Under the pieces are notes generated by a model that made no database searches, had not been told where the DNA came from, and saw nothing but the letters and a program-made list of their open reading frames with translations. A DNA stretch of 64,000 bases, from NCBI GenBank assembly GCA_046292875.1, contig JBKBQD010000008.1, positions 17,567 to 81,566 of the forward strand. Reading direction: 5' to 3'. Shown here one piece after another: positions 27,613-44,116 of the stretch. The translations under genes and the position numbers were made by a program. The DNA is from Fimbriimonadaceae bacterium (lineage in GTDB: Bacteria > Armatimonadota > Fimbriimonadia > Fimbriimonadales > Fimbriimonadaceae). How positions within the stretch are numbered: the stretch's first letter is position 1; the number at the start of each line of letters is the position of its first letter.

Positions 27613-27661
27613 TGCTTCTGCGCTGGTTTGAGCCCGTCTGCGGAACTCGAGCAAGCGAAAG

Positions 27662-28615
27662 CTACGGAACCAGCGTGCCGTCCATGATGGCGGCCACGGC
27701 CGCATTGACCGCAGTCCGAGCATCGGCCGGATACTCGTCGGCAAAGGCGGTAAGCCCAAGGGCTTGCTTGCGAAAGCCGACGGTCTCCGACGTCGCCATG
27801 CCGCCGCGCTTGAAGTCCTCGATGCCCGCCGCCATGAGTCGGCCCGTTTGCAGCACAACGCCCACCATCACTTCGGGTTGCCCCTCGACGAGCGTCGGCA
27901 TCGACCGCAAGCGGTAGGCGCGAGCGTCGGGACGGGTCAGCAGGGCCTCATGCACGCCGACGTAGGCGCCATCGACAAGAACGATAAACCCATCGACTCC
28001 CAGGGCCAAGAGCTCTTCGGCGGCTGACTTGCCAAATGCGGGCGTGTCCCAGTCGGGGGTCTTCCGTACGGTGACCGTCGCGGCTGGATTGACCGAGCGC
28101 GCCCCGGCCAATGCGGTTTCGAGAATCGAGTCCGGTTCGTTCTGCTGCAAGATGAGTCCGAGGTTGCCACTCGGTGAACCGGCGGCCGCCATCACGCCCA
28201 TGACGTAGCCGATCTCGCGCTCATTGAAGTAGTAAGAGCGCCAGTTGGGACCACTTTCCCTGCCGTTGATCTGGATGAAGGAGGACGCCGGGAAGCGCGC
28301 GCTCACGCTCCGCACGGCGTCGGTGAACTCGCTGCCATGGGCAAAAATGAACGTGAAACCGTCCTTGGCAAAGCTTTCGAGCGCCGCGACTTGACCCGGG
28401 CCGGACACGTTTTCTCGCAGGCTCACCGCGAATCCGCTGCGCGCCAGGTCTTCGAGGCCAAGATAGGCGGACTGATTCCAGCCGCCATCGTGGGCGTCGC
28501 CCGACATGACGAGTCCAACCGACTCGAAGGCAGGGGGTGTCGGGGGCGAGGTCGACGAACCGGCGCACCCGATGAGCACCATCCATGCCATGAAGCTAGG
28601 AATCCAAAGCCGCAT
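27662..28615 (-). CDS. BMP-family (PnrA-like) ABC transporter substrate-binding lipoprotein
   Basis: Start chosen at MRLWIPSFMAWMVLIGCAGS (lipobox). It has the periplasmic-binding-fold pattern FIFAHGSEF...GFIVLVDGA. Confidence 0.6.
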   Translation of the reverse strand: MRLWIPSFMAWMVLIGCAGSSTSPPTPPAFESVGLVMSGDAHDGGWNQSAYLGLEDLARSGFAVSLRENVSGPGQVAALESFAKDGFTFIFAHGSEFTDAVRSVSARFPASSFIQINGRESGPNWRSYYFNEREIGYVMGVMAAAGSPSGNLGLILQQNEPDSILETALAGARSVNPAATVTVRKTPDWDTPAFGKSAAEELLALGVDGFIVLVDGAYVGVHEALLTRPDARAYRLRSMPTLVEGQPEVMVGVVLQTGRLMAAGIEDFKRGGMATSETVGFRKQALGLTAFADEYPADARTAVNAAVAAIMDGTLVP

Positions 28616-28814
28616 CGAATGGATTTTAGCCCGAGGAGACTGAACTCCAATTGGTGAGGTGGACGGTACAAGGTCCCCTAAGCATAGGAAGCGGCCCAAA
28701 GGGCATTTAGCCTGTAGCATGCTCAAAAGCGCACGAGCGTTAACATGTGCGCCGCCTTCACCCTAGTGCCGCCGGTACACTGGGTCCTTCCACCACGCTC
28801 AGGGAACTCGAACC

Positions 28815-30980: not shown

Positions 30981-30984
30981 CGCC

Positions 30985-31383
30985 ATGGCCCCAGCTGATG
31001 TCGTACGCGAGCTCTATCGTCGATTTGGCGGAGGAGACGTCGACGGGGCACTGGCTTTATTCCTGGCCAACGCCACGCTTGAGATCGTCGGCGAGCGAAC
31101 CGACGTGCCGTATTTCGGTCGGTGGTCCGGACATGCTGGTCTACGTGAGTTCTACGCGTTGGTGGCGGAGACCACCGACGTGCAGGAATACGTTCCCGAG
31201 CAGTGGATCGAGACCGCGTCGGGCGTCATCGTGATCGGGCATGAAGCCGTCACCGTCAAGGCATCGGGGAAAAGCTATCGCTCACCGTGGATTGCCGTCT
31301 TTCGATTCGAAGGGGATCGTATCGCGTCCGTACGCGAGTTTTTCGACACGGCGACCATGGCGCGAGCCTTTAGAACGGACTGA
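30985..31383 (+). CDS. SnoaL-like / NTF2-family protein
   Basis: 132 aa with the pattern VRELYRRFGGGDVDGALALF...W..F.F.GDRI typical of SnoaL-like folds. Confidence 0.55.
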   Translation: MAPADVVRELYRRFGGGDVDGALALFLANATLEIVGERTDVPYFGRWSGHAGLREFYALVAETTDVQEYVPEQWIETASGVIVIGHEAVTVKASGKSYRSPWIAVFRFEGDRIASVREFFDTATMARAFRTD

Positions 31384-31404
31384 AATTACGGCTATGCTGA
31401 AGGC

Positions 31405-33024
31405 ATGATCGCCTGCCTCATCGCCGCATTCAGCCTGCAGCCGGCGGATTTGGTCATCGAAAACGCCCGCATCTGGACCGACGGGCGGACGTACTTCGCA
31501 TCGACCCTCGCCGTCCGGGATGGCGCGTTCGTCCACGTTGGGGACGCGGACCCGTCGCTCATCGGGCCGGAAACGAAGCGGGTGGACGTGGGCGGCGCAC
31601 TCGTGGTGCCGGGACTCTTTGACTCGCACATCCACATGCTGAATGGCGGGATGCAACTGAGCCGATTGAATTTGCGTGACGCCACGGACAAAGAGGATTT
31701 CGTCGCCAAGGTACGCGACTGGGCCGCGAAACTCGGACCCGGGGAGTGGATCCTGGGCGGTCGATGGTCCACGGAAAGCTGGTCGACTCCCGAACTCCCC
31801 CATCGCGCCTGGATCGATGCCGCCTCTGGGGGGCGACCGGCGTGGCTTTCCCGGATGGATGGGCACTCCGGCCTCGCCAATTCTGAGGCGCTTCGGCGCG
31901 CAGGCATCACGCGAGAGGGTCCCGCCGATCCCCCCGGCGGCGTCATTGATCGCGACCCGCAGACCGGCGAACCCACCGGCATTCTGCGCGAGACGGCGAT
32001 GGGGCTCGTCGCACGGCTCGTGCCCGCCGAAAGTGCCGATGACCGGCTGGCTGCCCTCAAGCGTGCGATCGACTACGCGTCAGAGCACGGCATTACCTCG
32101 GTCAGCGATGTCACCTCGATGGCCGACCTGCCGATCTATGAGCGACTGGCGCAGGAGGGTCCCGCGAAGGTCCGATTGCACCTCTATCCCACCTCGGACG
32201 ATTGGACGGCGGCCGCTCAAGCTGCGAATCGTTTTCAGGGTCTGCCCGGATTTATCGAGATCAAGGGATTCAAAGCGTACATGGACGGCAGTCTGGGGTC
32301 GCGCACCGCGTACATGCGCGCGCCCTTTCTGGGCAACCCGCCCGATCGTCCCGACTGGCGCGGTCTCCCCATGCCCGGCGTGCTCGAAGGGCTCATGGAG
32401 CGGAATGTTCGCGCGGCTGACCAAGCCGGATACCAGGCCATTGTCCACGCCATCGGCGATGAGGGCAACCATCTGCTGCTGAACATTGTCCAGAGCGCAA
32501 CCCGCGATCCTCGGCAAGCCCGCGCCCGCAGCGAGCACGCCCAGCACCTCTTGCCCGAAGACATCGAGCGGTTCGCCCGGCTTGGCGTCATTGCCTCCAT
32601 GCAGCCGTACCACAAGGCAGACGACGGCCGATATGCCGAAGACTACATCGGAAAAGAGCGCTGCCACAGCAGCTACGCCTTCAAGTCGCTGCTCGATGTC
32701 GGGGCCGTCGTGGCGTTCGGCTCCGATTGGCCCGTCGTCACGCTGAACCCCTTTCTCGGGCTGGAAGCCGCGGTTACCGGCAGAATCCTCAGCGGAGTGA
32801 TTTGGGAGCCGCAGGAGAACATCCCGCTCGCCGAAGCGCTGCGGTGCTACACCTCTGCCGCGGCCTATGCGGTCAAGCGCGAATCCGATCTTGGCCGCAT
32901 CGCGCCCGGTTATCAGGCGGACTTCATCGTCTTGAACCAGGACCTCTTCGTTCCACCCGTTAAGTGGGACAAAGTCAAGCCCACCGCCGTGTACGTTGCC
33001 GGTCGCCGGGTTCTTGGCATGTAG
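31405..33024 (+). CDS. amidohydrolase-3 family metal-dependent hydrolase
   Basis: 539 aa with PGLFDSHIHM (HxH metal site), HAIGD, and GSDWPV near the C-terminus. Confidence 0.8.
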   Translation: MIACLIAAFSLQPADLVIENARIWTDGRTYFASTLAVRDGAFVHVGDADPSLIGPETKRVDVGGALVVPGLFDSHIHMLNGGMQLSRLNLRDATDKEDFVAKVRDWAAKLGPGEWILGGRWSTESWSTPELPHRAWIDAASGGRPAWLSRMDGHSGLANSEALRRAGITREGPADPPGGVIDRDPQTGEPTGILRETAMGLVARLVPAESADDRLAALKRAIDYASEHGITSVSDVTSMADLPIYERLAQEGPAKVRLHLYPTSDDWTAAAQAANRFQGLPGFIEIKGFKAYMDGSLGSRTAYMRAPFLGNPPDRPDWRGLPMPGVLEGLMERNVRAADQAGYQAIVHAIGDEGNHLLLNIVQSATRDPRQARARSEHAQHLLPEDIERFARLGVIASMQPYHKADDGRYAEDYIGKERCHSSYAFKSLLDVGAVVAFGSDWPVVTLNPFLGLEAAVTGRILSGVIWEPQENIPLAEALRCYTSAAAYAVKRESDLGRIAPGYQADFIVLNQDLFVPPVKWDKVKPTAVYVAGRRVLGM

Positions 33025-33025
33025 G

Positions 33026-34540
33026 CTATAGCCCATCCCATGCCGCACGGGCGGCACGGGCCGCGGTGCGCCGCAAACGAGGCGCCATATCGATGACGGA
33101 CTCCAAATCAAGATCGGGAATCGTGACGTCACCTGCCGCGGTCTGCACCGTCAAGTGGCAGAGGCGGAGCTGCCGCTGACCAGGGCTTTGCTGAATGCTG
33201 ACCACTTGGACCTTGTCGAGCGGAACCATGACGAACATCCGTCCCAGCACGCCGGACCGCAAGCCGATCATGTCGTCGTTGCGAAACCAGAACGTATTCC
33301 GGCAGCTGAGGTAAGTCGCCACAACGACCCCTGCGATCACCACGCAGGATTCCCAGCGATGCTCTGGCGGCAGAAATCGAAACACGGCCACGAGCCCTGA
33401 CACGACCGGAATCGCCAGAATGCGCAGCCGACGCTGAAATGCTTTCGAACTGATCGGAGCCCACGGCTGGGTGTCCAGCCGTGAGAGGGGCAAGAAGATG
33501 CGTGAGAATGCGGGAGCCTCACTGAGCGGCAAAAGCGGTGCAATGACGGCTGAACCAGCGGCTTCTTTGTCTTGGAAGGAGCCTGCGGTGCTAACCGTGA
33601 TTTGGCAAAGGCGAAGCATGCGCTGAATGACGGTCTGACGAATGCGCAGCATCTGCAGGCGCTGGAGCCGCACCACGCTTTCGACTTGGTTGATGAGCCC
33701 GTACTTGCGCCGGATGCGCCCATCAACGTCGCTCAGCGTGAAGTTGCTGTACGTAAGAAGGGCACTCGCCACAGAATAGATCCATCCGAGGAGTAGCAGT
33801 CCGACCAGCGCAAGTGCCACCCATTGCCAGTTCGTGCCGTTCGCCGAAGTGGTGCGCACCGTGGTGACGGCCGTCCGGATGAACTCCGTCGAGGATTGGG
33901 TCAAAAAGAAGATCACCGAAAATCCGGCCGCTACGATCACCCCCGCGCGGTTCTCGCTGGCACCCAACATGACCGTTTCCGTCATTCCGAGCTTGAACAG
34001 CTCCCTCTCACGAACCGGCGCGACGACCGGCGGCGCATCCTGCGGACTTTGCGGTTCCGTTTCAAGCACAAACTCTGGTGCGCCCGCTCGGCCGAGCGTG
34101 GTCAGTGCATGCTTCAGCCGGTCGGCCTCCTCGAGCGTGACCGCCGAAAACGTCACCTCGGCGCCCGTGCCCGAAGCGGTCTCGACCTCGACATCGGTCA
34201 AATGAAGGAGTCGATGGAGCCAGGAACGTTTCAGGTTGATGTTTTGAATCCGCTCAAGGGGAACCGTGCGATCCTGGCGATGCAGAATCCCGCTCTGGAC
34301 GCGGAGTTTGTCGCCTTCAATCCAATATCGGAACGAGATGTAGTGCAGAACCGCGGCAAAGACCGCAAAAAGGCCAAGGGCGGCAAAGAAGAACTCCATG
34401 GTGTCGCCGCGCCCCCCGATGAAGCGGAGGAAGACAAACAGCACGATCAGATAGAGAAATCGCCCAACGGTGGCGGCTAAAGCAAGAATGATCGTGCCCG
34501 GCGCCAACCGGCGCACGTCAGAGGGAGGCAGGTTGGTCAC
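33026..34540 (-). CDS. membrane protein with repeated bacterial PH (bPH_2) domains, YdbT-like
   Basis: 504 aa. Three repeats pair TM hairpins with a PH-like segment, in the YdbT architecture. It overlaps the upstream YdbS-like gene. Confidence 0.65.
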   Translation of the reverse strand: MTNLPPSDVRRLAPGTIILALAATVGRFLYLIVLFVFLRFIGGRGDTMEFFFAALGLFAVFAAVLHYISFRYWIEGDKLRVQSGILHRQDRTVPLERIQNINLKRSWLHRLLHLTDVEVETASGTGAEVTFSAVTLEEADRLKHALTTLGRAGAPEFVLETEPQSPQDAPPVVAPVRERELFKLGMTETVMLGASENRAGVIVAAGFSVIFFLTQSSTEFIRTAVTTVRTTSANGTNWQWVALALVGLLLLGWIYSVASALLTYSNFTLSDVDGRIRRKYGLINQVESVVRLQRLQMLRIRQTVIQRMLRLCQITVSTAGSFQDKEAAGSAVIAPLLPLSEAPAFSRIFLPLSRLDTQPWAPISSKAFQRRLRILAIPVVSGLVAVFRFLPPEHRWESCVVIAGVVVATYLSCRNTFWFRNDDMIGLRSGVLGRMFVMVPLDKVQVVSIQQSPGQRQLRLCHLTVQTAAGDVTIPDLDLESVIDMAPRLRRTAARAARAAWDGL

Positions 34541-35078
34541 CCAGCATCTCCTCCTTCAGCCCTGCGGCCGCGGCCTGTGAAAGTCCGGGGATGGAGAGTG
34601 TCGCCCCTACGCCTCCCGCCACGAAGACGCTCACCGAGCAGAGCCCCAACTTGCGCTGAAGCGGCCCGCTCGTGATGTCGAGGTGCTGAACCCGACGCCG
34701 AGGGATATAGACTTCGGTCCTCCAAAAGATGCCGCGCTTCACGCCGAGGTCATCGTCGGTGACGCGATACTTCCAACAATCGTAGCTGCGATTGACCAGG
34801 AGGTACGAGATCACGGCAACGAGGACGCTCGTCGCAAGAGCTCCTAAGGCAAAGTTCAAAAAGACGGTGCGCTCACCGCGGATGAAATACAGAACAAGCG
34901 GAACGATCCAAGCTGGCGCGAGCCATGCCGCGCTCAGAAGGGCATAAAATCGCCAAAGCCTCCTCACCATGGGGTCGAGGCTGAGCCAAACACCTGGCTC
35001 GGGACGATCGGAATGCTCCGGGCCAACGTCCAACTCTGGCGCGCCAAGGTCCACGATGTCCGAGAGGAAGTCGTTCAC
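34518..35078 (-). CDS. bPH_2 domain membrane protein, YdbS-like
   Basis: 186 aa with two TM helices followed by a PH-like segment (YRVTDDDLGVKRGIFWR). It is paired with the YdbT-like gene. Confidence 0.65.
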   Translation of the reverse strand: MNDFLSDIVDLGAPELDVGPEHSDRPEPGVWLSLDPMVRRLWRFYALLSAAWLAPAWIVPLVLYFIRGERTVFLNFALGALATSVLVAVISYLLVNRSYDCWKYRVTDDDLGVKRGIFWRTEVYIPRRRVQHLDITSGPLQRKLGLCSVSVFVAGGVGATLSIPGLSQAAAAGLKEEMLGDQPASL

Positions 35079-35152
35079 GTCGTCTCCGTACGTCCATACG
35101 CAGGACGCCGCGTTAACGATTCGAGGGAGGCCGGGGCGGTATCCTGCCCGCG

Positions 35153-36663
35153 ATGGCGACTGGCGGTTCTGCGACCCCGGCTTGGATTGCGATCTTTGGC
35201 GCGACCGGCGACCTGGCTCACCGAAAGCTGATTCCAGCGCTCTTCAATCTCTTTCTTGATCGGCGGCTGCCCAAGCGGCTCCGCATCTGTGGTGTCGGGC
35301 GTCGAGGCGATCGCGCGTGGATGGTGGAGTCGATGCGCGAGGCGGTCATCCAGCACTCGCGACGCGGCGCGCCCGACGATGTCGCATGGTCCAAGTTCGT
35401 CGAAAGCTTTGACTACATCACCGGCCCTTTCGACGCGGCCTCGACCTACGAGGAGATTGGGCGCCACATTGCCGCCTCGGAAAAAGAGTGGGGGGAGAGC
35501 GCGGTGCGCATCTATTACCTCTCCACGCCACCGGACCTCATCGAGCCGATCATTCATGGGCTCGGCGACGTGGGATTGGCGGAAGACGCCAAGCGGGACC
35601 GCGTCGTGATCGAGAAACCGTTTGGACATGATTTGGCCTCCGCTGAATCGCTCAACCGGGTCGTGTCGAGCGTCTTCGATGAGCCTCAGGTGTATCGCAT
35701 CGACCACTACCTGGGCAAAGAGACGGTGCAAAACATCCTGGCTTTTCGCTTTGGCAATGCCCTTTGGGAGCCCATCTGGAACCGCCGCTATGTGGACCAC
35801 GTGCAGATCACCGTCGACGAGGATGGGGGCGTTGGGAGCCGCGGCGGATACTACGAAGACGCAGGCGCCCGCGCGACATGCTGCAGAACCATCTCCTCCA
35901 ACTGCTCTGCATGGTCGCCATGGAGCCGCCCGTGTCGTTCCGAGCAGAGGAGGTCCGCAACCGCAAGGTGGACGTCCTCAAGGCGGTGCGTCCGATTCCG
36001 CCTGCTGAGATTGGCCGCTACGCCGTCCGCGGTCAGTATGGCCCCGGCTGGGTCCGCGGCGAGCGAGTCCCGGGCTACCGCCAAGAGCAGGGCGTCGATC
36101 CAAAGTCAACGACCGAGACCTATGCCGCCATGAAGCTGCAGATTGACAATTGGCGCTGGCAGGATGTCCCCTTCTATCTGCGCACCGGCAAGCGCATGGC
36201 AGCCAAGGTGAGCAGCATTTCCATCCAGTTCAAGCCGGCCCCGCTGCAGCTGTTTCCGTCGGTTTCCGCCGAAGCCTGGGAACCGAATCGTCTGGTCATG
36301 GAGCTTCAGCCCAAAGAGGAGATCACCCTGCGGTTCCAAGCCAAGCGTCCCGGGCGAGGGATGACGCTGGAGACGGTTGGCCTCAGTTTTTGCTACGCCG
36401 AGTCGTTCAAGGTGCAGCCGCCAGAGGCATACGAAACTTTGCTCGCCGACGTGATCGCCGGAGATGGCACCCTCTTCATGCGGGCCGACCAAGAGACCGA
36501 AGCCTGGAAGATCGTCTCGCCGGTACTCGAGGCATGGGCCGAACATCCCCCCAGCGACTTTCCTAACTACCCCGCGGGATCGTGGGGTCCCGAAGCAGGC
36601 GAGGCGCTCATCGCGCGGGACGGTCGGGCATGGCATGCCCTTCTGCAGGAGGAGGAGCGGTGA
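35153..36663 (+). pseudogene. zwf: glucose-6-phosphate dehydrogenase, reading frame broken by an apparent 1-nt deletion near 35870
   Basis: The N-terminal ORF (35153-) carries [12 protein letters not shown] and RIDHYLGKE. The C-terminal part (to 36663), in another frame, carries [10 protein letters not shown]. The junction GYYEDAGA|xRDMLQNH has only 2 nt (35870-35871) where one codon is expected. Confidence 0.85.
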
Positions 36664-37379
36664 TAGGCCCCATCTATCTCGGCGAAGACCCCACCGAAGT
36701 CGCCGAGTTTGTTGCCTTGCGGTTGGCTTCCATTGCCGTGCGATGCGCCCGCGACGAAGGCCTCTGCCGCATTGCTCTGAGCGGCGGATCCACCGCGCTG
36801 ACACTTCTTGACGTCCTTGCGGACCGTCCGTTTCGCGACCATATGCCGTGGGGCCAGATCATCCTGTTTCAAGTGGATGATCGCGTGGTCGAGCCGGACA
36901 GCAACGGATCCAATGCCAAGGCCGTCCGCGAGCGCCTGCTGGAGCCGCTCGGTGACCGCTCCCCGGTCTTCCACCCGATGGTGCTCGACCCTTCCGATGC
37001 GTCGGCAGCCAAATCCTACGAGAGATTGATCAAGGAGATCGGCCCGATCGATGTCGCCGTCATGGGGATGGGCGAGGATGGGCACACCGCGTCGCTGTTT
37101 CCCGGGTTTGAGTCGGAGTGGACCGAGACAAAGTCGCGAGTCCTTTTCACGTCGGGACCGCCGCCCTATCCGCGGCGCATCACGCTCAGTCCCATGACGC
37201 TGGCCAAGACCGGACGTTTATTGTTTATGGTGACCGGAAAGACGAAAGGCCCGGCCCTCGCCAACCCCGACACCGTCGCCGCCCGCGTTTCTTTCGTGGC
37301 GCAGAAAGCCGAATGGTGGCTCGACGAAGCGGCGTATGCGTCGATGCAGTCTTGTGTCCGCGCGGACGCCCCGGCGTAA
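36660..37379 (+). CDS. pgl: 6-phosphogluconolactonase
   Basis: The GTG at 36660 overlaps the zwf stop (GTGA). It has ALSGGST and MGMGEDGHTASLFP motifs. Confidence 0.85.
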   Translation: MIGPIYLGEDPTEVAEFVALRLASIAVRCARDEGLCRIALSGGSTALTLLDVLADRPFRDHMPWGQIILFQVDDRVVEPDSNGSNAKAVRERLLEPLGDRSPVFHPMVLDPSDASAAKSYERLIKEIGPIDVAVMGMGEDGHTASLFPGFESEWTETKSRVLFTSGPPPYPRRITLSPMTLAKTGRLLFMVTGKTKGPALANPDTVAARVSFVAQKAEWWLDEAAYASMQSCVRADAPA

Positions 37380-37715
37380 CGCCCTCTCAACGCCGGGCGG
37401 GCGACACTCGTTACGTTCGCGATCGGCTATTGGCTGTTCCGCTCTCCCTCGCTCTTACCTCTTTTCCGAACGTGGAGATGGAGGGTAATGCGGGAAGGCG
37501 GTTGAGCGGGAGTCAGGCACAGGCACCGCATCAAAGTCCATGTCGCGGACGTGTTCTTGCGACAAACGATCGAACTCAAGGAGGTTGAGGAAAACACCTG
37601 TCGGACGTCCTTCGCGCACTCCCGCTAGGGCTGCATCGACCTCGAAGACAGATCGCTTCCACCCTTCAGAGCCTTTAAAGCGTGACCCATACGTCCGGAA
37701 TGGACAGTCAAGAGG

Positions 37716-37762
37716 TGGTGGGCGGTACAGGACTTGAACCTGTGACCCCTACAGTGTCATTG
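37716..37762 (-). repeat. orphan 47-nt copy of the 3' end of tRNA-Val(GAC); distal att-type direct repeat
   Basis: TGGTGGGCGGTACAGGACTTGAACCTGTGACCCCTACAGTGTCATTG is identical base for base to 42518-42564. No 5' half of a tRNA follows it. Confidence 0.9.
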
Positions 37763-37940
37763 GCCAAAAACCCGCCTCGCAAGTTCAAGCACAGACTCAA
37801 AAAGGTCTAGGTTGCAGCCATTTAGTTGGTGAACTTCGGATCATAAGTTGACGAGCAAGTTGCTTGTCTGAGCTCGGGAGCAGAGCGCTGCGTCGGGCTC
37901 TGGTTTGGTTCCGGGGCACTGAAGCAAATGGATAGGACGG

Positions 37941-38552
37941 TCAATAAACGAAGCCCCCGCCGTCGACTCCATTCTCGGTTGAGTAATTGTTTGCGCTGCC
38001 ACTGATTGCCGCCTCCAGGGCGGGCCACAGATAGTCGTTTCGGCCCCAAGATGGATCAACAATCTCGACAGACCAGCACGTCGCCAGATCGCGGCTGACG
38101 CTTGGGTGAAGTGCTTCATAGTCTTCAATACCGAAGCCCCCGCCCAGCCAAAGGCAAGGCTCCTTATTCTCGTTCACGCAGCCCACAAGCCGCAAGTAAC
38201 GGGGGTCCATCACGGGCCAGACAAAGGTGATCAAGTCGTATTCAAGCCCAAGACAGTAGAGTCGCATGGCAAGGTTCTCCCGCGCTGCGCCCGAGACGAA
38301 CGCTCGCTGTTTCCAAGATTCTCCGGTATCTCCAGGCTGCGAACAGTCCGTTAGGAACCCCGCTCTGTTCGCCTTTGCCAATAGGGCAGCCAGACCGCCA
38401 GTCTCGTCGTCGATGGCGGTCTGAGTGAAACCATCGATTTTGCCCTCGAGAAACTGAGCAGTCAGTTCACAAAGGTCATCGAAGGATCGGACGTTCTCCC
38501 ACGGTGTGCCTTCGAAGTCGTACACGGTTGACATTCTATTCTGGTCCGACAA
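37941..38552 (-). CDS. hypothetical protein, DUF6919-like (recognised from memory only)
   Basis: 203 aa. The segment FDDLCELTAQFLEGKI...DDETGGLAALLAKANRAGFLTDCSQPG resembles a family of unknown function seen mainly in actinobacteria. It is divergent from the TIR-APAZ gene. Confidence 0.55.
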   Translation of the reverse strand: MSDQNRMSTVYDFEGTPWENVRSFDDLCELTAQFLEGKIDGFTQTAIDDETGGLAALLAKANRAGFLTDCSQPGDTGESWKQRAFVSGAARENLAMRLYCLGLEYDLITFVWPVMDPRYLRLVGCVNENKEPCLWLGGGFGIEDYEALHPSVSRDLATCWSVEIVDPSWGRNDYLWPALEAAISGSANNYSTENGVDGGGFVY

Positions 38553-38690
38553 CTCTTGTTGGAGGCAAGTCGCGAAATTGAAGCAGAATGATCGTAAGAG
38601 ATGTATAGCTGCGCCTCCAGGAAATCTGGCACGGTGACGTGGTAGTTACCAAGCTTGTCGTGCAGCAAATTGGGTAAACACTAGTGCGCC

Positions 38691-40013
38691 ATGATCTTCG
38701 TAAGTCATGCCAATCCAGAGGACAATCGCATCGCGCTGTGGCTCGCGACTAAGCTTGCAGCTGAAGGCTTTCCCGTGTGGTGCGATCTTATCGACCTAAT
38801 CGGGGGTGAGACCTTCTGGGGGGATATTGAAGACGCTATCAAGAACCACGCCGAGAAGGTTATCGTGCTGTTGTCGACATCTTCGGGCAAGCCCGGAGTC
38901 AAAGACGAGATAAATTGTGCAATTCAACGAGAGAGGCGCGAAAACCTCAAGGACTTCGTTATCCCGTGTCGAGTCGATGATGTAGCGTTCGATTCCAATA
39001 TCCAGATAGCTCGAAAGAACATCATAGATTGCCACGGCTTGGGCTGGGCTGAGACGCTTCGTCGAGTGCTCGCAAAGCTCGAAAAGGATGGGGTTGCAAA
39101 AGATCCCAAGGTGAACCCATCTTTGATCAATTCGGCGTGGAGTGCGCTCTTCCCGGCAGGCAGCGGTGTGACCGATGATCCTGAGCTCTATGACACGAAT
39201 CGGATTGCTATCAAGACCTTACCGAAGACGTTGTGGGCAAACGACGCCGGCGCCCCTGGAGCGGACGATTTTTTCCCCGTCACGGCTTCAGTTTTTGAAG
39301 GACGCCGGCTGAGCTTTCAAGCACGAAATCCACGAGCTTCCCTCTTCGGTAGAGACCCTGAGTTCATGCAACCGATGAACATCGAACTCGACGATTTCAT
39401 ACAAGGAGGTTGGGATGAGCTCGGGGTGGATTCGCGACGTGCGCGGCATGTGGTGGTGGAGTTACTCAGCAAATCATGGAGTCGATACCTTAGGGGTCGA
39501 AATCTAGAACCGTACGACTTATCCGGCTTTCGATCGATATTCTATTTTCACAAAGAGAATCTTCCAGCCGGCGAGGTCATAACCCAACTCCCGGAAAGAC
39601 CAGCGCGTCCTCGGAGCCTGTGGGGTGAGCATACAGTGCCCCGTAGCGCTAGACGCGAGAGTAGGTTCTATCACTTGGCTTGGGAGGGGCGGGTCGACGA
39701 TGATAATGGTTGGCATCTAATGTTGCTGCCGCACATCGTATGGACGTCCGATGCCCTTCGCGCTACATATGAAAAAGATGAGCAGCATCGGCTGAGGCGC
39801 AGGCAATGCAAGGGCTGGTGGAATGACCGATGGCGCGGTTTTCTCTACGCCACCCTCACCTGGGCAGCGGAGGGAAAGGAAACAATTGAGATTCCGGTCG
39901 GGGATCGTCAGACTATGACACTCGCCAATGCACCTTCGCGACTGCTCTCACCAGTGACACACGCCCGAGTCCAAGGAGTGCTGGAGGATGACGGCGAAAA
40001 CGCCGATGAGTGA
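38691..40013 (+). CDS. TIR-APAZ protein (SPARTA NADase effector subunit)
   Basis: 440 aa. The N-terminal TIR-like signature is MIFVSHANPEDNRIALWLATKLAAEGFPVWCD...EKVIVLLSTSS...VKDEINCA. About 300 aa follow with no enzymatic motif (APAZ-like). The stop overlaps the start of the downstream short pAgo. Confidence 0.85.
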   Translation: MIFVSHANPEDNRIALWLATKLAAEGFPVWCDLIDLIGGETFWGDIEDAIKNHAEKVIVLLSTSSGKPGVKDEINCAIQRERRENLKDFVIPCRVDDVAFDSNIQIARKNIIDCHGLGWAETLRRVLAKLEKDGVAKDPKVNPSLINSAWSALFPAGSGVTDDPELYDTNRIAIKTLPKTLWANDAGAPGADDFFPVTASVFEGRRLSFQARNPRASLFGRDPEFMQPMNIELDDFIQGGWDELGVDSRRARHVVVELLSKSWSRYLRGRNLEPYDLSGFRSIFYFHKENLPAGEVITQLPERPARPRSLWGEHTVPRSARRESRFYHLAWEGRVDDDNGWHLMLLPHIVWTSDALRATYEKDEQHRLRRRQCKGWWNDRWRGFLYATLTWAAEGKETIEIPVGDRQTMTLANAPSRLLSPVTHARVQGVLEDDGENADE

Positions 40014-41508
40014 CCTAATCTACATTCGGGAGCCTCGGTTGCTTTTCGCTCATGGCCAAGCGATGGAACACCCACGCGACGGGTTGGCCCTCTTTGGGCC
40101 ATACAAACAGGCGAAAGGGGGCATCCGGATTGGTTACGCTGGCCCCCATTCAGGGCTCAGGGTTGTGGAGAAGTTCCTGACCCGATTATCAAAACCGGTC
40201 AAGGTAGCAAAGGAGAAGGAACTGCGCGTCCCATTTCCAGGATTTGAAGCGGTCTTTGGGTGCCCGCTAGCGTCCGAACCGGTGGCGGCCGCGATTGTCA
40301 ATGATCAGAACCTCCTGAGCACCCTCACTATCAAGGAGCCGCACCAGCGCGTGCATAGCGCAGTGGGTCTCTATGTTGACGCCATACTGCATTGGATCAA
40401 CTCCAATGACGTCACTCCTGATCTCTGGATCGTGTTCGTCATTCCCGAAGTATTCAAGCACTGTCGACCGCTACAGGCAAGGCTTCGCTTGGATGATGCC
40501 GAAGTCCCTTTCTCGATCACCGCCAAACAAGCGCGGCTGTATTGCCAGGCTCCCTCCTTGTTTGAAGAAGATATGGTGCCGATGGCCGCGTTTGAATACG
40601 AACCCGACTTTCATAGCCAAATCAAGTTCCGCCTGCTAAAGGATCGAGTGGTAACTCAATTGTTGCGCGAGGAGACTACCCATCTTCTGCTCGACTACAA
40701 CTTCGATTCCTCTAAGCCGTCCGAGCAAACGCAAGCGAACGACTTGTCGTGGCGATTCTCGACCGCAATATACTACAAAGTACATGGAGCTCCGTGGAAG
40801 CTCGCAAATCTCCGATCCGGAGTGTGTTATCTCGGCTTAGTCTTCAAGAAAGCTCAAGGCAATGATGAACGGGCAGCCTGCTGCGCAGCACAGATGTTTC
40901 TTGATTCTGGGGACGGCGTTGTCTTCCGCGGCGCTGTCGGGCCTTGGTACAACCCCAAGCGACGTCAGTTTCACCTCACAACTGAAGCCGCATCAGAACT
41001 GTGCGCCCTCGCGGTGAATGCCTACGAAGAGGATTTCAAGCGACGTCCCAATGAACTCTTCATCCACGGCCGATCAGGATTCAACGACGAAGAGTGGGCT
41101 GGGTTCTTAGAAGGGGCTAAAGGTGTCGGCCATGTCGGAGCAGTGCGAATCAAAGACGCAGCCAAACTGCGGCTTTATGCCAATGGTTTACTAACCCCTC
41201 TTCGGGGATTGGCCTGGCAATCGGGCGAGCGGTCGGCAGCCCTGCTTACCCACGGGTTCGTTCCAAGGACCCAAACTTACGCAGGCAGCGAGGTCCCGGT
41301 CCCATTAGGTGTAGACGTCCTGCGGGGCGATTCATGCCTGCAAACTGTACTGTCGGATGTCTTGTCCCTCACCAAACTGAACTACAACTCCTGCAATTTC
41401 GGAGACGGATCTCCCGTGACATTGCGATTTGCAGACAACATTGGCGAGATACTTACTGCAGGAAAACAGCAGCACATTCCACCGTTGCCCTTTAAGCACT
41501 ACATCTGA
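40006..41508 (+). CDS. short prokaryotic Argonaute (MID-PIWI only), SPARTA sensor subunit
   Basis: About 500 aa. The N-terminus MSDLIYIREPRLLFAHGQ..RDGLALFGPY and the C-terminus PVTLRFADNIGEILTAG..PPLPFKHYI-stop match what I recall of SPARTA-type short pAgos. It is too short for N/PAZ domains. An alternative ATG lies at 39988. Confidence 0.85.
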   Translation: MSDLIYIREPRLLFAHGQAMEHPRDGLALFGPYKQAKGGIRIGYAGPHSGLRVVEKFLTRLSKPVKVAKEKELRVPFPGFEAVFGCPLASEPVAAAIVNDQNLLSTLTIKEPHQRVHSAVGLYVDAILHWINSNDVTPDLWIVFVIPEVFKHCRPLQARLRLDDAEVPFSITAKQARLYCQAPSLFEEDMVPMAAFEYEPDFHSQIKFRLLKDRVVTQLLREETTHLLLDYNFDSSKPSEQTQANDLSWRFSTAIYYKVHGAPWKLANLRSGVCYLGLVFKKAQGNDERAACCAAQMFLDSGDGVVFRGAVGPWYNPKRRQFHLTTEAASELCALAVNAYEEDFKRRPNELFIHGRSGFNDEEWAGFLEGAKGVGHVGAVRIKDAAKLRLYANGLLTPLRGLAWQSGERSAALLTHGFVPRTQTYAGSEVPVPLGVDVLRGDSCLQTVLSDVLSLTKLNYNSCNFGDGSPVTLRFADNIGEILTAGKQQHIPPLPFKHYI

Positions 41509-41642
41509 TTCAGTACAGACCGATGGAAACGCGTGCCGCAGAGACTGATGCAGGCGATCCATCGCGACCTAGGAATCGTATCCGGCCTTTACCCCGGCGA
41601 AACGGCCGCGTAGGGGCTTGAAGCAACGGTATCCTCAGCAGA

Positions 41643-42191
41643 ATGAACGCTGGCCCGCGAGAGGAGTCTAAAACTGCGGTAATCACGAGGGGCTACTGGG
41701 GTGAACAAGTAATGTCCTTGGTTCCAGATTCCGCAATGCCACTTTCTACAGAGGAATCTGAGTCGATCTCAATTGGATTTCCGGTTCCGTCCGAGAACCA
41801 GCCGACTCACCTAGATGACCATATATGCTACCACAATTCGAGGCAATTTGTGCTGAGTTATCCCGAAGAATTGTGGTATGTGGACGGATTTGCGGGCCTA
41901 GACATAGGCCCAACCAGTGGGCCCGATGGCAACCGCTATCCGACATACGATCTTGGGTTGCACGCCTGGTGTGTAAACAAATTGGCTCTGGTCGTTGACC
42001 CTTCCTGGAACCCTGACGGCAACTATTACATGGGGATTGCCATTCGTCGTCAGCTCGTCCGAGAACATCTGGACAGCAAGAACCAAAGAGGGGCAGTCCA
42101 TCAGAGCTATCTCAATGAATGGCACGAACTAACCAAAGAGGAGCGCTTGGCTATGAAGCAGGAACTCAAGGATTGGTGCGGAGCCACGTAA
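41643..42191 (+). CDS. hypothetical protein (islet cargo)
   Basis: 182 aa (or from M24 at 41712). I recognise no family. It contains LHAWCVNKLALVVDPSWNPDGNYY, which echoes a motif in the 37941-38552 protein. Confidence 0.45.
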   Translation: MNAGPREESKTAVITRGYWGEQVMSLVPDSAMPLSTEESESISIGFPVPSENQPTHLDDHICYHNSRQFVLSYPEELWYVDGFAGLDIGPTSGPDGNRYPTYDLGLHAWCVNKLALVVDPSWNPDGNYYMGIAIRRQLVREHLDSKNQRGAVHQSYLNEWHELTKEERLAMKQELKDWCGAT

Positions 42192-42239
42192 TGGGGATCC
42201 CCTCTGGCATCGACACGTTGGTGTCCCTCACCGACTCAC

Positions 42240-42517
42240 ATTCCGATATATAGTCGGTCCAAAGCCGTTCGCGGGAAAAAGCATTACGCCTGCCTCGTCG
42301 AAGATCTCCGCGACAGCTTCGCCACGAACCACGTCCGAATGGGAACGGACATCAAGTCGATTTCCGAAATGATGGGCCACCACAAGCCCTCCTACACGCT
42401 GGACAAGTACGTCAAGACGGACGAGGCGACGATCCGGGCCGCGCAGGACAAGTTGACGGATAAGCTACACGAGGCGCGCACGGCGGAGCCGGAGTGGCTC
42501 CCCGCAGGTTCAAAAGA
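42240..42517 (+). pseudogene. tyrosine recombinase (phage-type integrase) C-terminal remnant
   Basis: The in-frame translation ..RGKKHYACLVEDLRDSFATNHVRMGTDIKSISEMMGHHKPSYTLDKYV.. matches the integrase box II region (HDLRHTFAT...LGH....T...Y). The first His is replaced (E-D-L-R-D) and no upstream catalytic domain remains; there is a stop at 42189. Confidence 0.65.
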
Positions 42518-42592
42518 TGGTGGGCGGTACAGGACTTGAACCTGTGACCCCTACAGTGTCATTGTAGTGCTCTACCACTGAGCTAACCGCCC
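42518..42592 (-). tRNA. tRNA-Val (anticodon GAC), CCA encoded; integration target
   Basis: The reverse complement is GGGCGGTTAGCTCAGTGGTAGAGCA-CTACA-ATGACAC-TGTAG-GGGTC-ACAGGTTCAAGTCCTGT-ACCGCCCACCA. Its 3' 47 nt are the proximal direct repeat. Confidence 0.9.
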
Positions 42593-42669
42593 GGGGAGGC
42601 TCAAGTATGGCCCGGCGGGGGAGCGTCCGTCAAGTCAACCAGCCCCTGCACGGGTACGATTCTGGGCAC

Positions 42670-42745
42670 GGCCTCGTAGCTCAGTGGATAGAGCGCCTCC
42701 GTCCTAAGGAGGGCGTCGGGGGTTCGATTCCCTCCGAGGCCGCCA
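42670..42745 (+). tRNA. tRNA-Arg (anticodon CCT), CCA encoded
   Basis: GGCCTCGTAGCTCAGTGGATAGAGCG-CCTCC-GTCCTAA-GGAGG-GCGTC-GGGGGTTCGATTCCCTC-CGAGGCCGCCA. Confidence 0.9.
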
Positions 42746-42794
42746 CGACGCGAGATTCGACCGCTGAGGCGGTCAGACCCATCAAGCCAAGGGC

Positions 42795-43262
42795 ATGTCC
42801 TCCAAATTTCTCATCACTGGCATGTCCGGTACCGGCAAGTCGTCGGTGATTGCCGAGCTTCGCCGCCGCGGGTTCCGGGCCATGGATGCTGATGATGGAT
42901 TTTCAGAATCAGGTCCGGAGGGGGACTGGGTGTGGATTGAACCCAAAGTCGCACAGCTTCTTGCTGATCCGCATGGCGGCACCCTCTTTTTTTCGGGGTG
43001 CGCGTCGAATCAAGGCCGTTTTTACGACGACTTTGATCAAGTGATTTTGCTCGTTGCGCCGGTGGAAGTGCTTTTGTCCAGGTTGGAACAACGTCAAACC
43101 AACCACTTTGGCAAGACTGATGCAGAGCGCGCTCGAATCCTCGTCGACCTGGAAACGTTTGAGCCAGTGTTGCGCAGGACATCGGACGTGATCATCGAAA
43201 CATCGGTTCCGCTTGCTGAAGTCGTGGACCAAATACTGTTGTCCGCCGGACTGTCTGAGTGA
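42795..43262 (+). CDS. P-loop NTPase (small AAA/kinase-like ATP-binding protein)
   Basis: 155 aa with Walker A ITGMSGTGKSS at the N-terminus. The size and layout resemble shikimate/adenylate-kinase-like proteins. Confidence 0.6.
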   Translation: MSSKFLITGMSGTGKSSVIAELRRRGFRAMDADDGFSESGPEGDWVWIEPKVAQLLADPHGGTLFFSGCASNQGRFYDDFDQVILLVAPVEVLLSRLEQRQTNHFGKTDAERARILVDLETFEPVLRRTSDVIIETSVPLAEVVDQILLSAGLSE

Positions 43263-43489
43263 CCAGATGTCTTCCAATGAAGTAGCTGAGGCTGGTCGAT
43301 CCATCTCGATGCTCTCTTGTGGCCACTGGATTCCGTGAGGCATTTTGCGATACCTATAGACTTAACCCATTCTTTACCTACCTTTCATCCAACCGAACAG
43401 AGACGTCGGGAGGGAGGCGACACCTTCCGAGGTTGCCTGGCGTTTCCTGAAGCAGGACGTCATCGAGCGGCATGCAAGCCAGAACCCAC

Positions 43490-43966
43490 TCAGTACATCG
43501 CTTTGTCGCCGTACAGTGTCTGGATGAACGCCAGTTGACCCAAGTGATACGTCGTGTTCCAGTACGGAAACGACATCAAATCGGCCATGGATTGGGGTAA
43601 GTCATTGGCAAAGGTAAGGCGAATCTCCAGGCCCAACTCGTCCTGGGGAAACGTGCGGACCAGCTCATAGAATCGGTCCAGGTTCTCTCTCAGCACTGCC
43701 TCGCATTTGTCGAAGGTATCCCAGCTCCCCATCAGGGCCGCGTCTGCCGCCATGCGCTGCTCGTCGTATTCCATGCACGCCCGTGCCGCAAGCATTTCGA
43801 TGGCCCAGGTCGGAGCCATGGCGATCTCCTGCATCAGGGCCAAAGGCGTGCGTCCGACGCCCAGCACACTCCAGGTCCGTTTGTCTTCGGGGGTGTGGCG
43901 CATGTAGGCAAGAAAGGTCTGGTGGGCCTCTTCCGTCAGGCGAATCATTTGGTCGGTATAGAGCAT
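43490..43966 (-). CDS. DinB-family protein
   Basis: 158 aa. The C-terminal YHLGQLAFIQTLYG matches the DinB-fold HxGQ motif. Confidence 0.55.
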   Translation of the reverse strand: MLYTDQMIRLTEEAHQTFLAYMRHTPEDKRTWSVLGVGRTPLALMQEIAMAPTWAIEMLAARACMEYDEQRMAADAALMGSWDTFDKCEAVLRENLDRFYELVRTFPQDELGLEIRLTFANDLPQSMADLMSFPYWNTTYHLGQLAFIQTLYGDKAMY

Positions 43967-44116
43967 GGGCGTTCATATTAGCCGACATACGTATGCTCTT
44001 TTATCAAAATGCTTGCATCATCTTAGCGTCATCGATCTTGGGACGACTGGGATCACGCGACAAAGCATGCAGTGCGGTCAGGGCAGGTTTTGCGAGCCGC
44101 AGGTACCCTCGCGCCT

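What the first reader, a model, noticed from the sequence alone, without database searches (positions are those of the whole stretch)
37716..42592. About 4.8-kb islet integrated at the 3' end of tRNA-Val(GAC), bounded by a perfect 47-bp direct repeat
Seen in sequence:
- 37716-37762 and 42518-42564 are identical: TGGTGGGCGGTACAGGACTTGAACCTGTGACCCCTACAGTGTCATTG.
- The right copy is the 3' 47 nt, including CCA, of an intact minus-strand tRNA-Val. The left copy is an orphan fragment with no tRNA 5' half.
- By eye, the DNA between them is clearly less G+C-rich than the flanks. My rough visual estimate is low-50s percent against low-60s percent; I did not compute it.
- The gene content (unknown gene, SPARTA pair, unknown gene, integrase scrap) is unrelated to zwf-pgl on the left or tRNA-Arg on the right.

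Established knowledge: tyrosine-integrase islands insert into tRNA 3' ends and duplicate the att core in exactly this way, with the integrase gene next to the tRNA.

Inference: the SPARTA operon was acquired horizontally on this element.
Basis: partly seen in the sequence, partly recalled or inferred. Interest (0 to 1): 0.75.

Follow-up and report, generated by a model that had tools for sequence, protein, structure and literature searches.

The report
Decayed tRNA-Val island carrying SPARTA defence
A 4.8-kb piece of foreign DNA carrying a SPARTA (short Argonaute/TIR) defence operon sits in the 3' end of a tRNA-Val gene of a Fimbriimonadaceae genome; a close relative has the same site empty, so this is a real but ordinary, now-crippled integrative island.

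Summary
37716-37762 and 42518-42564 are an exact 47-bp direct repeat. The right copy is nt 29-75 of an intact minus-strand tRNA-Val(GAC); the left copy is an orphan. The 4,755 bp between them are 54.6% G+C against about 62% in the flanks, and are the strongest tetranucleotide outlier in the window (z 8.9).

A roughly 95%-identical relative (Logan contig L035) has pgl, 334 nt, tRNA-Val and tRNA-Arg with nothing inserted, which is an empty site.

Island genes:
- DUF6919
- TIR-APAZ plus short pAgo (bona fide SPARTA; TIR catalytic Glu conserved)
- an unknown 182-aa Cys/His/Asp-motif protein
- the last ~88 codons of a tyrosine integrase, 5'-truncated and frameshifted

Fuller relatives of that integrase also lie against tRNA-Val(GAC), and their last 16 codons are the att core itself.

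The element is mosaic. Only the two SPARTA genes are shared with the three closest SPARTA loci (70-78% DNA identity). The DUF6919 end with its att arm recurs at 85% identity with other cargo.

It is best read as a decayed, CIME-like tRNA island with a defence cargo: a new member of a known kind. Main caveat: the window comes from a MAG, and no reads were available to check the junctions.

The parts
37716..37762 (.). Distal att copy: an orphan duplicate of the 3' 47 nt of tRNA-Val(GAC), with no tRNA 5' half beside it.
   Evidence: Exact repeat. No tRNA is called here. In the empty site of L035 this position is the single tRNA copy.
37763..37940 (.). attP-derived arm between the orphan core and DUF6919. 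It carries three AAGTT-containing motifs that may be recombinase or RDF binding sites (inference).
   Evidence: The first 60 nt are 95% identical to L044/L045, higher than the 85% over the whole shared end.
37941..38552 (-). DUF6919 protein (194-203 aa depending on the start chosen). It is the conserved 'far-end' backbone gene of this element family, and its fold resembles the SAM-binding regulatory domain of MTHFR.
   Evidence: Pfam PF21897, E 5e-36. 85% DNA identity to L044/L045, where it is again about 180 bp from the att core but lies next to different cargo. Found on 39 plasmids and 0 phages. Fold description from PMC11701544.
38691..40013 (+). TIR-APAZ, the SPARTA NADase effector subunit (440 aa).
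   Evidence: Pfam TIR_2, E 1e-18. PADLOC Aga_TIR-PNTD1-PNTD2, E 2e-100. Matches PDB SPARTA TIR-APAZ chains at E 2e-40. E73 aligns with the catalytic E77.
39988..41508 (+). Short prokaryotic Argonaute (506 aa, MID-PIWI). It overlaps TIR-APAZ by 26 nt.
   Evidence: PADLOC pAgo_I, E 5e-173. Full-length match to the SPARTA pAgo chains 8ifk_B and 8fex_B, E 1e-125.
41643..42191 (+). Unknown 182-aa protein from a small family with invariant C62, H107 and near-invariant D119. It may be a papain/transglutaminase-like Cys-His-Asp enzyme (inference only).
   Evidence: 33 distant homologues besides the window's own protein. Invariant columns. No hit in Pfam, PDB sequences or Foldseek. AlphaFold2 model: mean pLDDT 70, core residues 60-180 mostly confident.
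42303..42567 (+). 3' remnant (about 88 codons) of a tyrosine integrase. The 5' three quarters are deleted, and an extra C in the C-run at 42501-42504 (CCCC against CCC in L038; the alignment puts the gap at about 42505) shifts the frame. The original frame runs through the whole att core and stops at TAG 42565-42567, which is supplied by the tRNA body.
   Evidence: Pfam Phage_integrase positions 130-170 of 172, E 9e-6. 88% DNA identity to L038 from 42305 onward. Frame-corrected translation ends ...EWLPQVQKMVGGTGLEPVTPTVSL*, as in P0125, P0126 and L042.
42518..42564 (.). Proximal att copy, which is nt 29-75 of the functional tRNA-Val.
42518..42592 (-). Intact tRNA-Val(GAC), the integration target.
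   Evidence: ARAGORN. Rfam, 70.8 bits.
42670..42745 (+). Neighbouring tRNA-Arg(CCT). It is not part of the islet, but it is a second integration site of this locus in a relative.
   Evidence: Homology of L043 to the window starts inside this tRNA at 42708, preceded by at least 8.6 kb of foreign DNA.

Best explanation
The segment is the remnant of a small integrative element that uses a tyrosine integrase specific for tRNA-Val(GAC).

How it got there (inferred from established tRNA-island biology): the element's attP carried a copy of tRNA nt 29-75, that is anticodon stem-loop to CCA. Recombination with the chromosomal tRNA gene rebuilt an intact tRNA next to the integrase end. It left an orphan 47-bp copy at the far end, next to DUF6919.

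What the sequence shows:
- In this family the integrase gene overlaps the att core, and its last 16 codons are the core.
- Here the integrase has lost about three quarters of its 5' part and carries a frameshift, so the islet cannot move by itself.
- With two perfect att copies it is structurally a CIME-like element. A related integrase supplied in trans could still excise it (inference).

Its cargo is an intact SPARTA operon. By homology to CrtSPARTA and MapSPARTA, the short pAgo uses small RNA guides to detect invading, highly transcribed plasmid DNA, the complex oligomerises, and the TIR domain depletes NAD(P)+ (abortive defence). The host acquired SPARTA horizontally on this element, after the split from a ~95%-identical relative whose site is empty.
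For: - Repeat and target: exact 47-bp repeat with an intact tRNA.
- Empty site: L035 is 95.4% identical across 11.1 kb and runs straight from the left flank through one core copy into tRNA-Val and tRNA-Arg.
- Composition: G+C is 54.6%, below the minimum (59.6%) of all 99 host windows of the same size. Tetranucleotide distance z is 8.9. GC3 is 0.57-0.64 in the island genes against 0.72-0.78 in host genes.
- Integrase remnant. Its homologues P0125/L038, P0126 and L042 all abut tRNA-Val(GAC) and read through the core. L042 holds at least 289 aa (PHROG phrog_1 'integrase', E 2e-45) and shows a recognisable Arg (ETGMRQQE), H-x-x-R (HGIRASY) and GHH...DKY when its translation is read by eye.
- SPARTA identity and catalytic Glu.
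- Mosaic structure: DNA similarity to the three closest SPARTA loci stops at the borders of the two genes (38673/38690 to 41504/41508, 70-78%), and DUF6919 and orf182 are absent from those loci. The DUF6919 end plus att arm recurs with an ABC-transporter cargo.
- Independent data: a Logan contig from run SRR31360857 is 100% identical to the island and breaks inside the two repeat copies.
Against: - The window matches a metagenome-assembled genome: identical proteins are named as a Fimbriimonadaceae MAG on a 131-kb contig. The 47-bp core is 100% identical in at least two other sequences, L040 and L042. A mis-join through the core is therefore conceivable, and no read-level evidence was available.
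- No excised circle was seen, no empty junction in the same sample, and no cognate intact integrase in the 64-kb window. Present-day mobility is unproven.
- The route of arrival is not resolved: integration of a complete element followed by decay, or arrival of an already defective islet.
- SPARTA points towards the tRNA here but away from it in L040 and L039. SPARTA is therefore not a fixed part of one collinear element.
Confidence: 0.85

Rival explanations
1. Assembly chimera. The island belongs to another Armatimonadota genome of ~54-55% G+C in the same metagenome. It was spliced into this MAG contig through the 47-bp tRNA-Val core, which is identical across lineages.
For: - The window corresponds to a MAG.
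- The core is 100% identical in L040 and L042.
- The island's G+C (54.6%) matches that of the loci carrying its closest relatives: L039 54.0%, L040 55.1%, L044 55.8%.
- The k-mer graph contig L001 stops inside the repeats, so that dataset does not resolve the junctions.
Against: - A chimera would need two independent mis-joins, one at each repeat copy, placed so that they mimic an integration with the integrase remnant on the tRNA side and the orphan copy on the far side.
- The island and the host flank are found as exact protein matches in the Logan collection. The island contig is from run SRR31360857; the run that holds the flank proteins was not shown.
- The locus is demonstrably a hotspot, with other insertions in close relatives.
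Confidence: 0.07
2. The islet is real, but it did not arrive through its own integrase. It was already defective (CIME-like) and either (a) was integrated in trans by a related integrase, or (b) was copied from a sister strain by homologous recombination in the flanking core genes.
For: - Truncated integrases of this family recur next to tRNA-Val with different cargo: P0125 has 165 aa. P0126 has 77 aa, starts within about 10 codons of the window's truncation point, and lies next to MarR-MFS genes.
- Both att copies are still perfect while the integrase is badly damaged.
- The integrase scrap has GC3 0.81, unlike the cargo at 0.57-0.64, which suggests different histories.
Against: - One deletion plus one indel can happen quickly.
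- A perfect 47-bp orphan is not informative on age. At most about one substitution is expected since the split from L035, given 4.6% divergence.
- No cognate integrase was seen in the 64 kb available.
- The DNA of the P0126 contig could not be retrieved, so the truncation points cannot be compared.
Confidence: 0.3
3. The segment is ancestral to the lineage and was lost by precise excision in the L035 strain, rather than gained here.
For: With only one empty-site relative and no outgroup, polarity is not formally established (the next pgl homologue is at 36-41% identity).
Against: - The strongly foreign composition has not ameliorated.
- The L036/L043 strains, which are equally close, also lack the segment.
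Confidence: 0.08

Closest known systems
tRNA-inserted genomic islands and integrative elements with tyrosine integrases (P4-like islands; actinomycete pSAM2/SLP1-type elements; the anticodon-loop sublocation class of Williams 2002, which I recall from memory)
   Same: - Direct repeat equal to the 3' part of a tRNA, from the anticodon stem to CCA.
- tRNA regenerated at one end, with the integrase gene at the tRNA-proximal end.
- Foreign base composition.
- Empty site in a relative.
   Different: - Very small (4.8 kb).
- The integrase is reduced to about 88 frameshifted codons.
- No xis, replication or transfer genes.
- In this family the integrase ORF overlaps the whole att core, so its C-terminal tail would differ between the integrated form (…TVSL*) and the excised form (…TVSLAKNPPRKFKHRLKKV*).
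CIMEs, cis-mobilizable elements (ICEberg 2.0, PMC6323972; PMC10201445)
   Same: Flanked by intact attL and attR, but lacking functional integration and transfer genes, which is the published definition.
   Different: - CIMEs were defined in Firmicutes as ICE derivatives that are mobilised by accretion with a cognate ICE.
- No helper element is known here, and mobilisation is untested.
- The host is Armatimonadota.
SPARTA (short pAgo clade S2A; CrtSPARTA and MapSPARTA, Koopal et al. 2022, PMC9097488)
   Same: - Two-gene operon, TIR-APAZ followed by a ~500-aa MID-PIWI pAgo.
- Full-length alignment to the solved complexes.
- Catalytic TIR Glu conserved.
   Different: - The pAgo matches solved and other database homologues strongly (E 1e-125) but shares at most 48% identity with any database homologue outside its own small subclade. 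That subclade has 3 other members at 78-87%.
- The host phylum is Armatimonadota.
- Activity is untested.
SSV1-type archaeal integrases with attP inside the int gene (recalled from memory)
   Same: attP overlaps the integrase coding sequence, so integration changes the int ORF.
   Different: In SSV1 the gene is split and inactivated on integration. Here only the codons after the core would be exchanged (a 15-aa tail), and the catalytic domain stays intact.

Membership tests
tRNA-integrated tyrosine-integrase island | Direct repeats that duplicate the 3' segment of a tRNA gene, with an intact tRNA at one end | tested here: met
   Exact 47-bp repeat equal to tRNA nt 29-75. The tRNA is called by ARAGORN and Rfam.
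tRNA-integrated tyrosine-integrase island | Functional tyrosine integrase gene at the tRNA-proximal end | tested here: not met
   Only the last ~88 codons remain, and they are frameshifted. The position and orientation match those of the fuller homologues L038 and L042.
tRNA-integrated tyrosine-integrase island | Unoccupied attB in related genomes | tested here: met
   L035, at 95.4% identity, has pgl, 334 nt, tRNA-Val and tRNA-Arg.
tRNA-integrated tyrosine-integrase island | Base composition or codon usage different from the host | tested here: met
   G+C 54.6% against 61.9%. Tetranucleotide z 8.9. GC3 0.57-0.64 against 0.72-0.78.
tRNA-integrated tyrosine-integrase island | Excision to a circular attP form | not testable with these tools
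   No reads were available. The k-mer contig L001 is uninformative because it breaks inside the repeats.
CIME (cis-mobilizable element) | Intact attL and attR, without functional recombination or conjugation genes | tested here: met
   The repeats are perfect. Of the five ORFs, only an integrase scrap relates to recombination, and there is no relaxase or T4SS gene.
CIME (cis-mobilizable element) | Mobilised by a cognate element's integrase | not testable with these tools
   No cognate integrase occurs in the 64-kb window. The rest of the genome was not available.
SPARTA (short pAgo clade S2A) | Short pAgo of about 500 aa (MID+PIWI only) | tested here: met
   506 aa. PADLOC pAgo_I, E 5e-173. 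Aligns residues 7-506 to 1-507 of 8ifk_B and 8fex_B.
SPARTA (short pAgo clade S2A) | TIR-APAZ encoded immediately upstream in the same operon | tested here: met
   38691-40013, overlapping the pAgo by 26 nt. PADLOC E 2e-100. PDB TIR-APAZ chains E 2e-40.
SPARTA (short pAgo clade S2A) | Catalytic glutamate of the TIR NADase (E77 in CrtSPARTA and MapSPARTA) | tested here: met
   E73 in 'GVKDEINCA' aligns with the E of 'GVLKELAVA' in the solved chain. The role of E77 is taken from PMC9097488.
SPARTA (short pAgo clade S2A) | PIWI lacking the DEDX catalytic tetrad; guide-dependent NAD(P)ase activity | not tested
   The tetrad positions were not inspected, and biochemical activity cannot be tested here.

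The most novel reading that the evidence does not exclude
The islet may be one member of an undescribed family of tRNA-Val(GAC)-specific integrative elements of Armatimonadota and their relatives. In this reading:
- The integrase gene ends inside the att core, so the enzyme's C-terminal tail switches between the integrated and excised states.
- The far end always carries a DUF6919 (MTHFR-regulatory-domain-like, putatively SAM-binding) gene.
- The middle is an exchangeable cargo slot (SPARTA here; an ABC transporter or MarR-MFS genes elsewhere).
- Integrase-less derivatives such as this one are moved in trans as defence-carrying satellites.
- DUF6919 would then be an element-maintenance or anti-defence factor rather than cargo.
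Probability: 0.25. Interest if true: 0.45.

Novelty: new member of a known kind. Interest (0 to 1): 0.3.

Why it matters
- It gives a clean natural 'before and after' pair, an empty and an occupied attB at ~95% identity. This shows that a SPARTA operon moves as cargo of a site-specific element in a poorly studied phylum (Armatimonadota).
- It shows that SPARTA behaves as a precise two-gene cassette exchanged between different tRNA-linked vehicles.
- It flags DUF6919, a 'dark' family whose fold resembles the SAM-binding domain of eukaryotic MTHFR, as a gene linked to mobile elements.
- None of this changes current concepts. Defence systems on tRNA-inserted islands are the rule.

Tried and rejected
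- **Genome collection scan with pgl.** No relative above 41% identity, so no empty site was found there.
- **Exact look-ups.** The 265-aa pgl ORF and the NCBI version P0121 are not on record.
- **A second islet at tRNA-Arg in the window.** I suspected one because 42750-44000 has low G+C and the AAA_18 kinase has GC3 0.60. I rejected a recent insertion, because L043 is collinear at 96.3% from 42708 onward and no repeat of the tRNA-Arg end was found.
- **An orphan tRNA-Val core downstream of SPARTA in L040.** None found with up to 3 mismatches.
- **Viral contigs searched with the L042 integrase.** No relatives.
- **Island DNA against plasmids and phages.** Apart from one weak 157-bp plasmid hit (69% identity, E 5e-6), the listed matches cover only the tRNA.
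- **orf182.** No significant hit in Pfam, NCBIfam, PADLOC or PHROGs. The profile found nothing among PDB sequences. Foldseek of the AlphaFold2 model found nothing at E <= 0.001. The Cys-His-Asp reading therefore stays an inference from the conserved columns.
- **Promoter and terminator scan of the islet.** Not above shuffled expectation.
- **DNA of the JGI contig carrying P0126.** Could not be fetched.
Full report
**1. Observation.**
Positions 37716-37762 and 42518-42564 are identical 47-mers, and neither side extends as a perfect match. With up to 3 mismatches the pattern occurs only at these two places, against 0 expected in shuffles. The repeat finder adds an imperfect 8-nt extension on the left (TCAAGAGG / TCAAAAGA), giving 55 nt at 96%.

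ARAGORN and Rfam call an intact tRNA-Val(GAC) at 42518-42592 on the minus strand and tRNA-Arg(CCT) at 42670-42745. Nothing is called at the left copy. The repeat is tRNA nt 29-75, that is from the 5' strand of the anticodon stem to the encoded CCA.

G+C is 54.6% between the repeats, against 62.7% and 62.0% in the flanks.

**2. Source.**
Proteins of the window are identical to entries of an NCBI MAG named Fimbriimonadaceae bacterium: a 131,233-bp contig with locus tags ACK4XJ_11210 to ACK4XJ_11240. The family belongs to Armatimonadota.

The lineage is isolated. Apart from one 90% cluster, the best pgl homologues are at 36-41% identity.

**3. Genes.**

| Coordinates | Strand | Product | Evidence |
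|---|---|---|---|
| 37941-38552 | - | DUF6919 | E 5e-36 |
| 38691-40013 | + | TIR-APAZ | |
| 39988-41508 | + | short pAgo, 26-nt overlap with TIR-APAZ | PADLOC pAgo_I 5e-173; PDB SPARTA chains 1e-125 |
| 41643-42191 | + | unknown 182-aa protein | see below |
| ~42303-42567 | + | tyrosine-integrase C-terminus | Pfam positions 130-170 of 172, E 9e-6 |

- E73 of the TIR domain aligns with the catalytic Glu, E77 in CrtSPARTA and MapSPARTA.
- The 182-aa protein has 33 distant homologues (besides the window's own protein), with invariant C62 and H107 and near-invariant D119. Its AlphaFold2 model has mean pLDDT 70. No library or fold match was found.

**4. The integrase remnant and its family.**
Database relatives of the remnant are rare. 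There are three:
- P0125, 165 aa, on L038
- P0126, 77 aa, on a JGI contig where it lies next to MarR-MFS genes
- the ORF of L042, at least 289 aa (PHROG phrog_1 'integrase', E 2e-45; a recognisable Arg, H-x-x-R and GHH...DKY when the translation is read by eye)

On the contigs whose DNA is held (L038 and L042), the gene abuts a minus-strand tRNA-Val(GAC), and the ORF runs through the entire att core: …EWLPQVQKMVGGTGLEPVTPTVSL, then a TAG supplied by the tRNA body.

DNA homology of the window to L038 (88%) begins at about 42305. The 5' three quarters of the gene are therefore gone. An extra C in the C-run at 42501-42504 (CCCC against CCC) also shifts the frame.

In a circular attP form the ORF would instead continue 15 codons into the DUF6919-side arm. 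That form is inferred, not observed.

No other relative of this integrase is present in the 64 kb.

**5. Empty site and hotspot.**
- L035 (Logan, SRR12908344) aligns at 95.4% with window 26665-37762 and then continues directly with 42510-42739. The order there is pgl, 334 nt, tRNA-Val, tRNA-Arg, with a single core copy.
- In two other runs, L036 and L037 are 96% identical but leave the window 31 bp after pgl (37410) and enter unrelated genes.
- L043, from the same run as L036, re-enters the window inside tRNA-Arg at 42708 after at least 8.6 kb of foreign DNA.

The locus therefore exists in at least three states among ~95-96%-identical genomes.

**6. Composition.**
Among 4,755-bp windows, the island has the largest tetranucleotide distance from the rest of the window: 0.312 against a mean of 0.138 with sd 0.020, so z is 8.9. 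Its G+C is below the minimum of all 99 host windows.

GC3 is 0.57-0.64 for the four island genes and 0.72-0.78 for host genes. The integrase scrap is at 0.81.

**7. Mosaic build.**
The pAgo has only three close relatives (78-87% identity); the next best are at 48% or less. DNA similarity of those loci to the window is confined to 38673/38690-41504/41508, which is the two SPARTA genes. DUF6919 and orf182 are absent from all three.

| Locus | SPARTA context |
|---|---|
| L040 | 2.5 kb downstream of a tRNA-Val(GAC) with the identical core; no orphan copy found |
| L039 | an orphan tRNA-Val core lies ~1 kb past the pAgo, at the contig end, in an element with a 541-aa serine recombinase |
| L041 | just downstream of tRNA-Glu(CTC), whose 3' 19 nt are repeated 118 bp away |

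Relative to the tRNA, SPARTA points the opposite way in the window compared with L040 and L039.

Conversely, L044 and L045 share the DUF6919 gene, the 180-bp arm and the core with the window at 85% identity. The first 60 nt of the arm are 95% identical. Both carry other cargo.

DUF6919 occurs on 39 plasmids, 36 of them from Streptomyces, and on no phage. It has been described as similar to the SAM-binding regulatory domain of MTHFR.

**8. Mechanism.**
*Shown:* the att duplication, the rebuilt tRNA, the empty site, the foreign composition, a remnant of a tRNA-Val-associated integrase, and an intact SPARTA operon.

*Inferred from established knowledge:*
- Integration was by integrase-mediated attP x attB recombination within the 47-bp identity. 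The crossover was probably in the anticodon loop (Williams 2002, from memory).
- Integrase was later lost by deletion and frameshift.
- SPARTA acts as RNA-guided, target-DNA-activated NAD(P)+ depletion (PMC9097488).
- The current structure fits the published definition of a CIME, with intact attL and attR and no recombination or transfer genes. Trans-mobilisation is untested.

**9. Caveats and rivals.**
- **MAG chimerism.** A mis-join through the conserved core cannot be excluded without reads. I rate it ~0.07, because it needs two coordinated mis-joins that reproduce the correct polarity.
- **Route of arrival.** Whether the islet arrived complete or already defective is open. A perfect orphan copy is uninformative given 4.6% divergence from L035.
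- **Ancestral presence with loss in L035.** This is unlikely given the composition and two further relatives without the segment. It would not change the conclusion of foreign origin.

**10. Verdict.**
The finding is correct and well supported. It is an ordinary phenomenon (a defence cargo on a tRNA-inserted island) in an unusual host, with some tidy details:
- an integrase ORF that ends inside the att core
- a recurrent DUF6919 end
- SPARTA as an exchangeable two-gene cassette

I rate it a new member of a known kind, with interest of about 0.3.

Noticed in passing
window 35153-36663 (indel at 35870): zwf is split into two overlapping frames by a 1-nt deletion (GCGCCC-GCGCG against GCGCCCTGCGCG). 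L035 and L036 encode an intact 503-aa G6PD. This is either a real pseudogene or a consensus error in the MAG.
   Followed up: partly
L036 10752-20720, L037, and L043 1-8591 (window equivalents 37410 and 42708): In strains ~96% identical to the window, the stretch from 31 bp after pgl to the middle of tRNA-Arg(CCT) is replaced by more than 18 kb of unrelated genes. These include a 1031-aa Tubulin_2 protein and a 1076-aa protein. An orphan 3' 38 nt of tRNA-Arg remains at the right junction. This suggests a large island at tRNA-Arg plus a deletion that removed tRNA-Val.
   Followed up: partly
L041 7297-7492 and 11569-11587: The 78%-identical SPARTA operon sits directly after tRNA-Glu(CTC). The last 19 nt of that tRNA are repeated 118 bp downstream at 95%, and weakly (74%) about 1 kb past the pAgo. 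This may be another tRNA-linked mini-islet, or tandem att scars.
   Followed up: no
L039 1509-3134 and 12503-12546: The 87%-identical SPARTA lies in a block of small genes with a 541-aa serine recombinase and an Mrr_cat protein. The contig ends in an orphan tRNA-Val core that carries a compensatory pair of changes in the T-stem (CTGG…CCAG instead of CAGG…CCTG).
   Followed up: no
L040 5772-11146: On a 942-kb JGI contig (55% G+C), SPARTA lies 2.5 kb downstream of a tRNA-Val(GAC) with the identical 47-bp core, behind Cupin_2 and aldo-keto-reductase genes. No second core copy is found. The pAgo is called as a shortened 381-aa gene.
   Followed up: partly
window 42795-43262 and 43490-43966: The AAA_18-type kinase gene just right of tRNA-Arg has foreign-like composition (G+C 54.7%, GC3 0.60). 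It is nevertheless conserved in the relative L043. The neighbouring 158-aa ORF has no family hit and is fragmented in relatives (129 aa and 32 aa).
   Followed up: partly
JGI 3300071325, 6,163-bp contig (no DNA held): A 77-aa integrase scrap that is 81% identical to the window's scrap and starts within about 10 codons of the same point. It follows MarR and MFS-transporter genes, so a similar decayed end sits next to a different cargo.
   Followed up: no
L038 15-296: Upstream of the 165-aa truncated integrase is a small ORF with weak HTH_17/MerR similarity (E 0.002). It could be an excisionase-like gene of this element family.
   Followed up: no
window 37708-37715 against 42510-42517, and L035 11046-11053: The 8 nt outside the core on the CCA side are similar in the native chromosome (TCAAGAGG here, TCAATAGA in L035) and on the island side (TCAAAAGA, which codes the integrase residues …QK). 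The matches are 6/8 and 7/8. The attP identity may once have extended beyond the tRNA end, or this may be chance.
   Followed up: no
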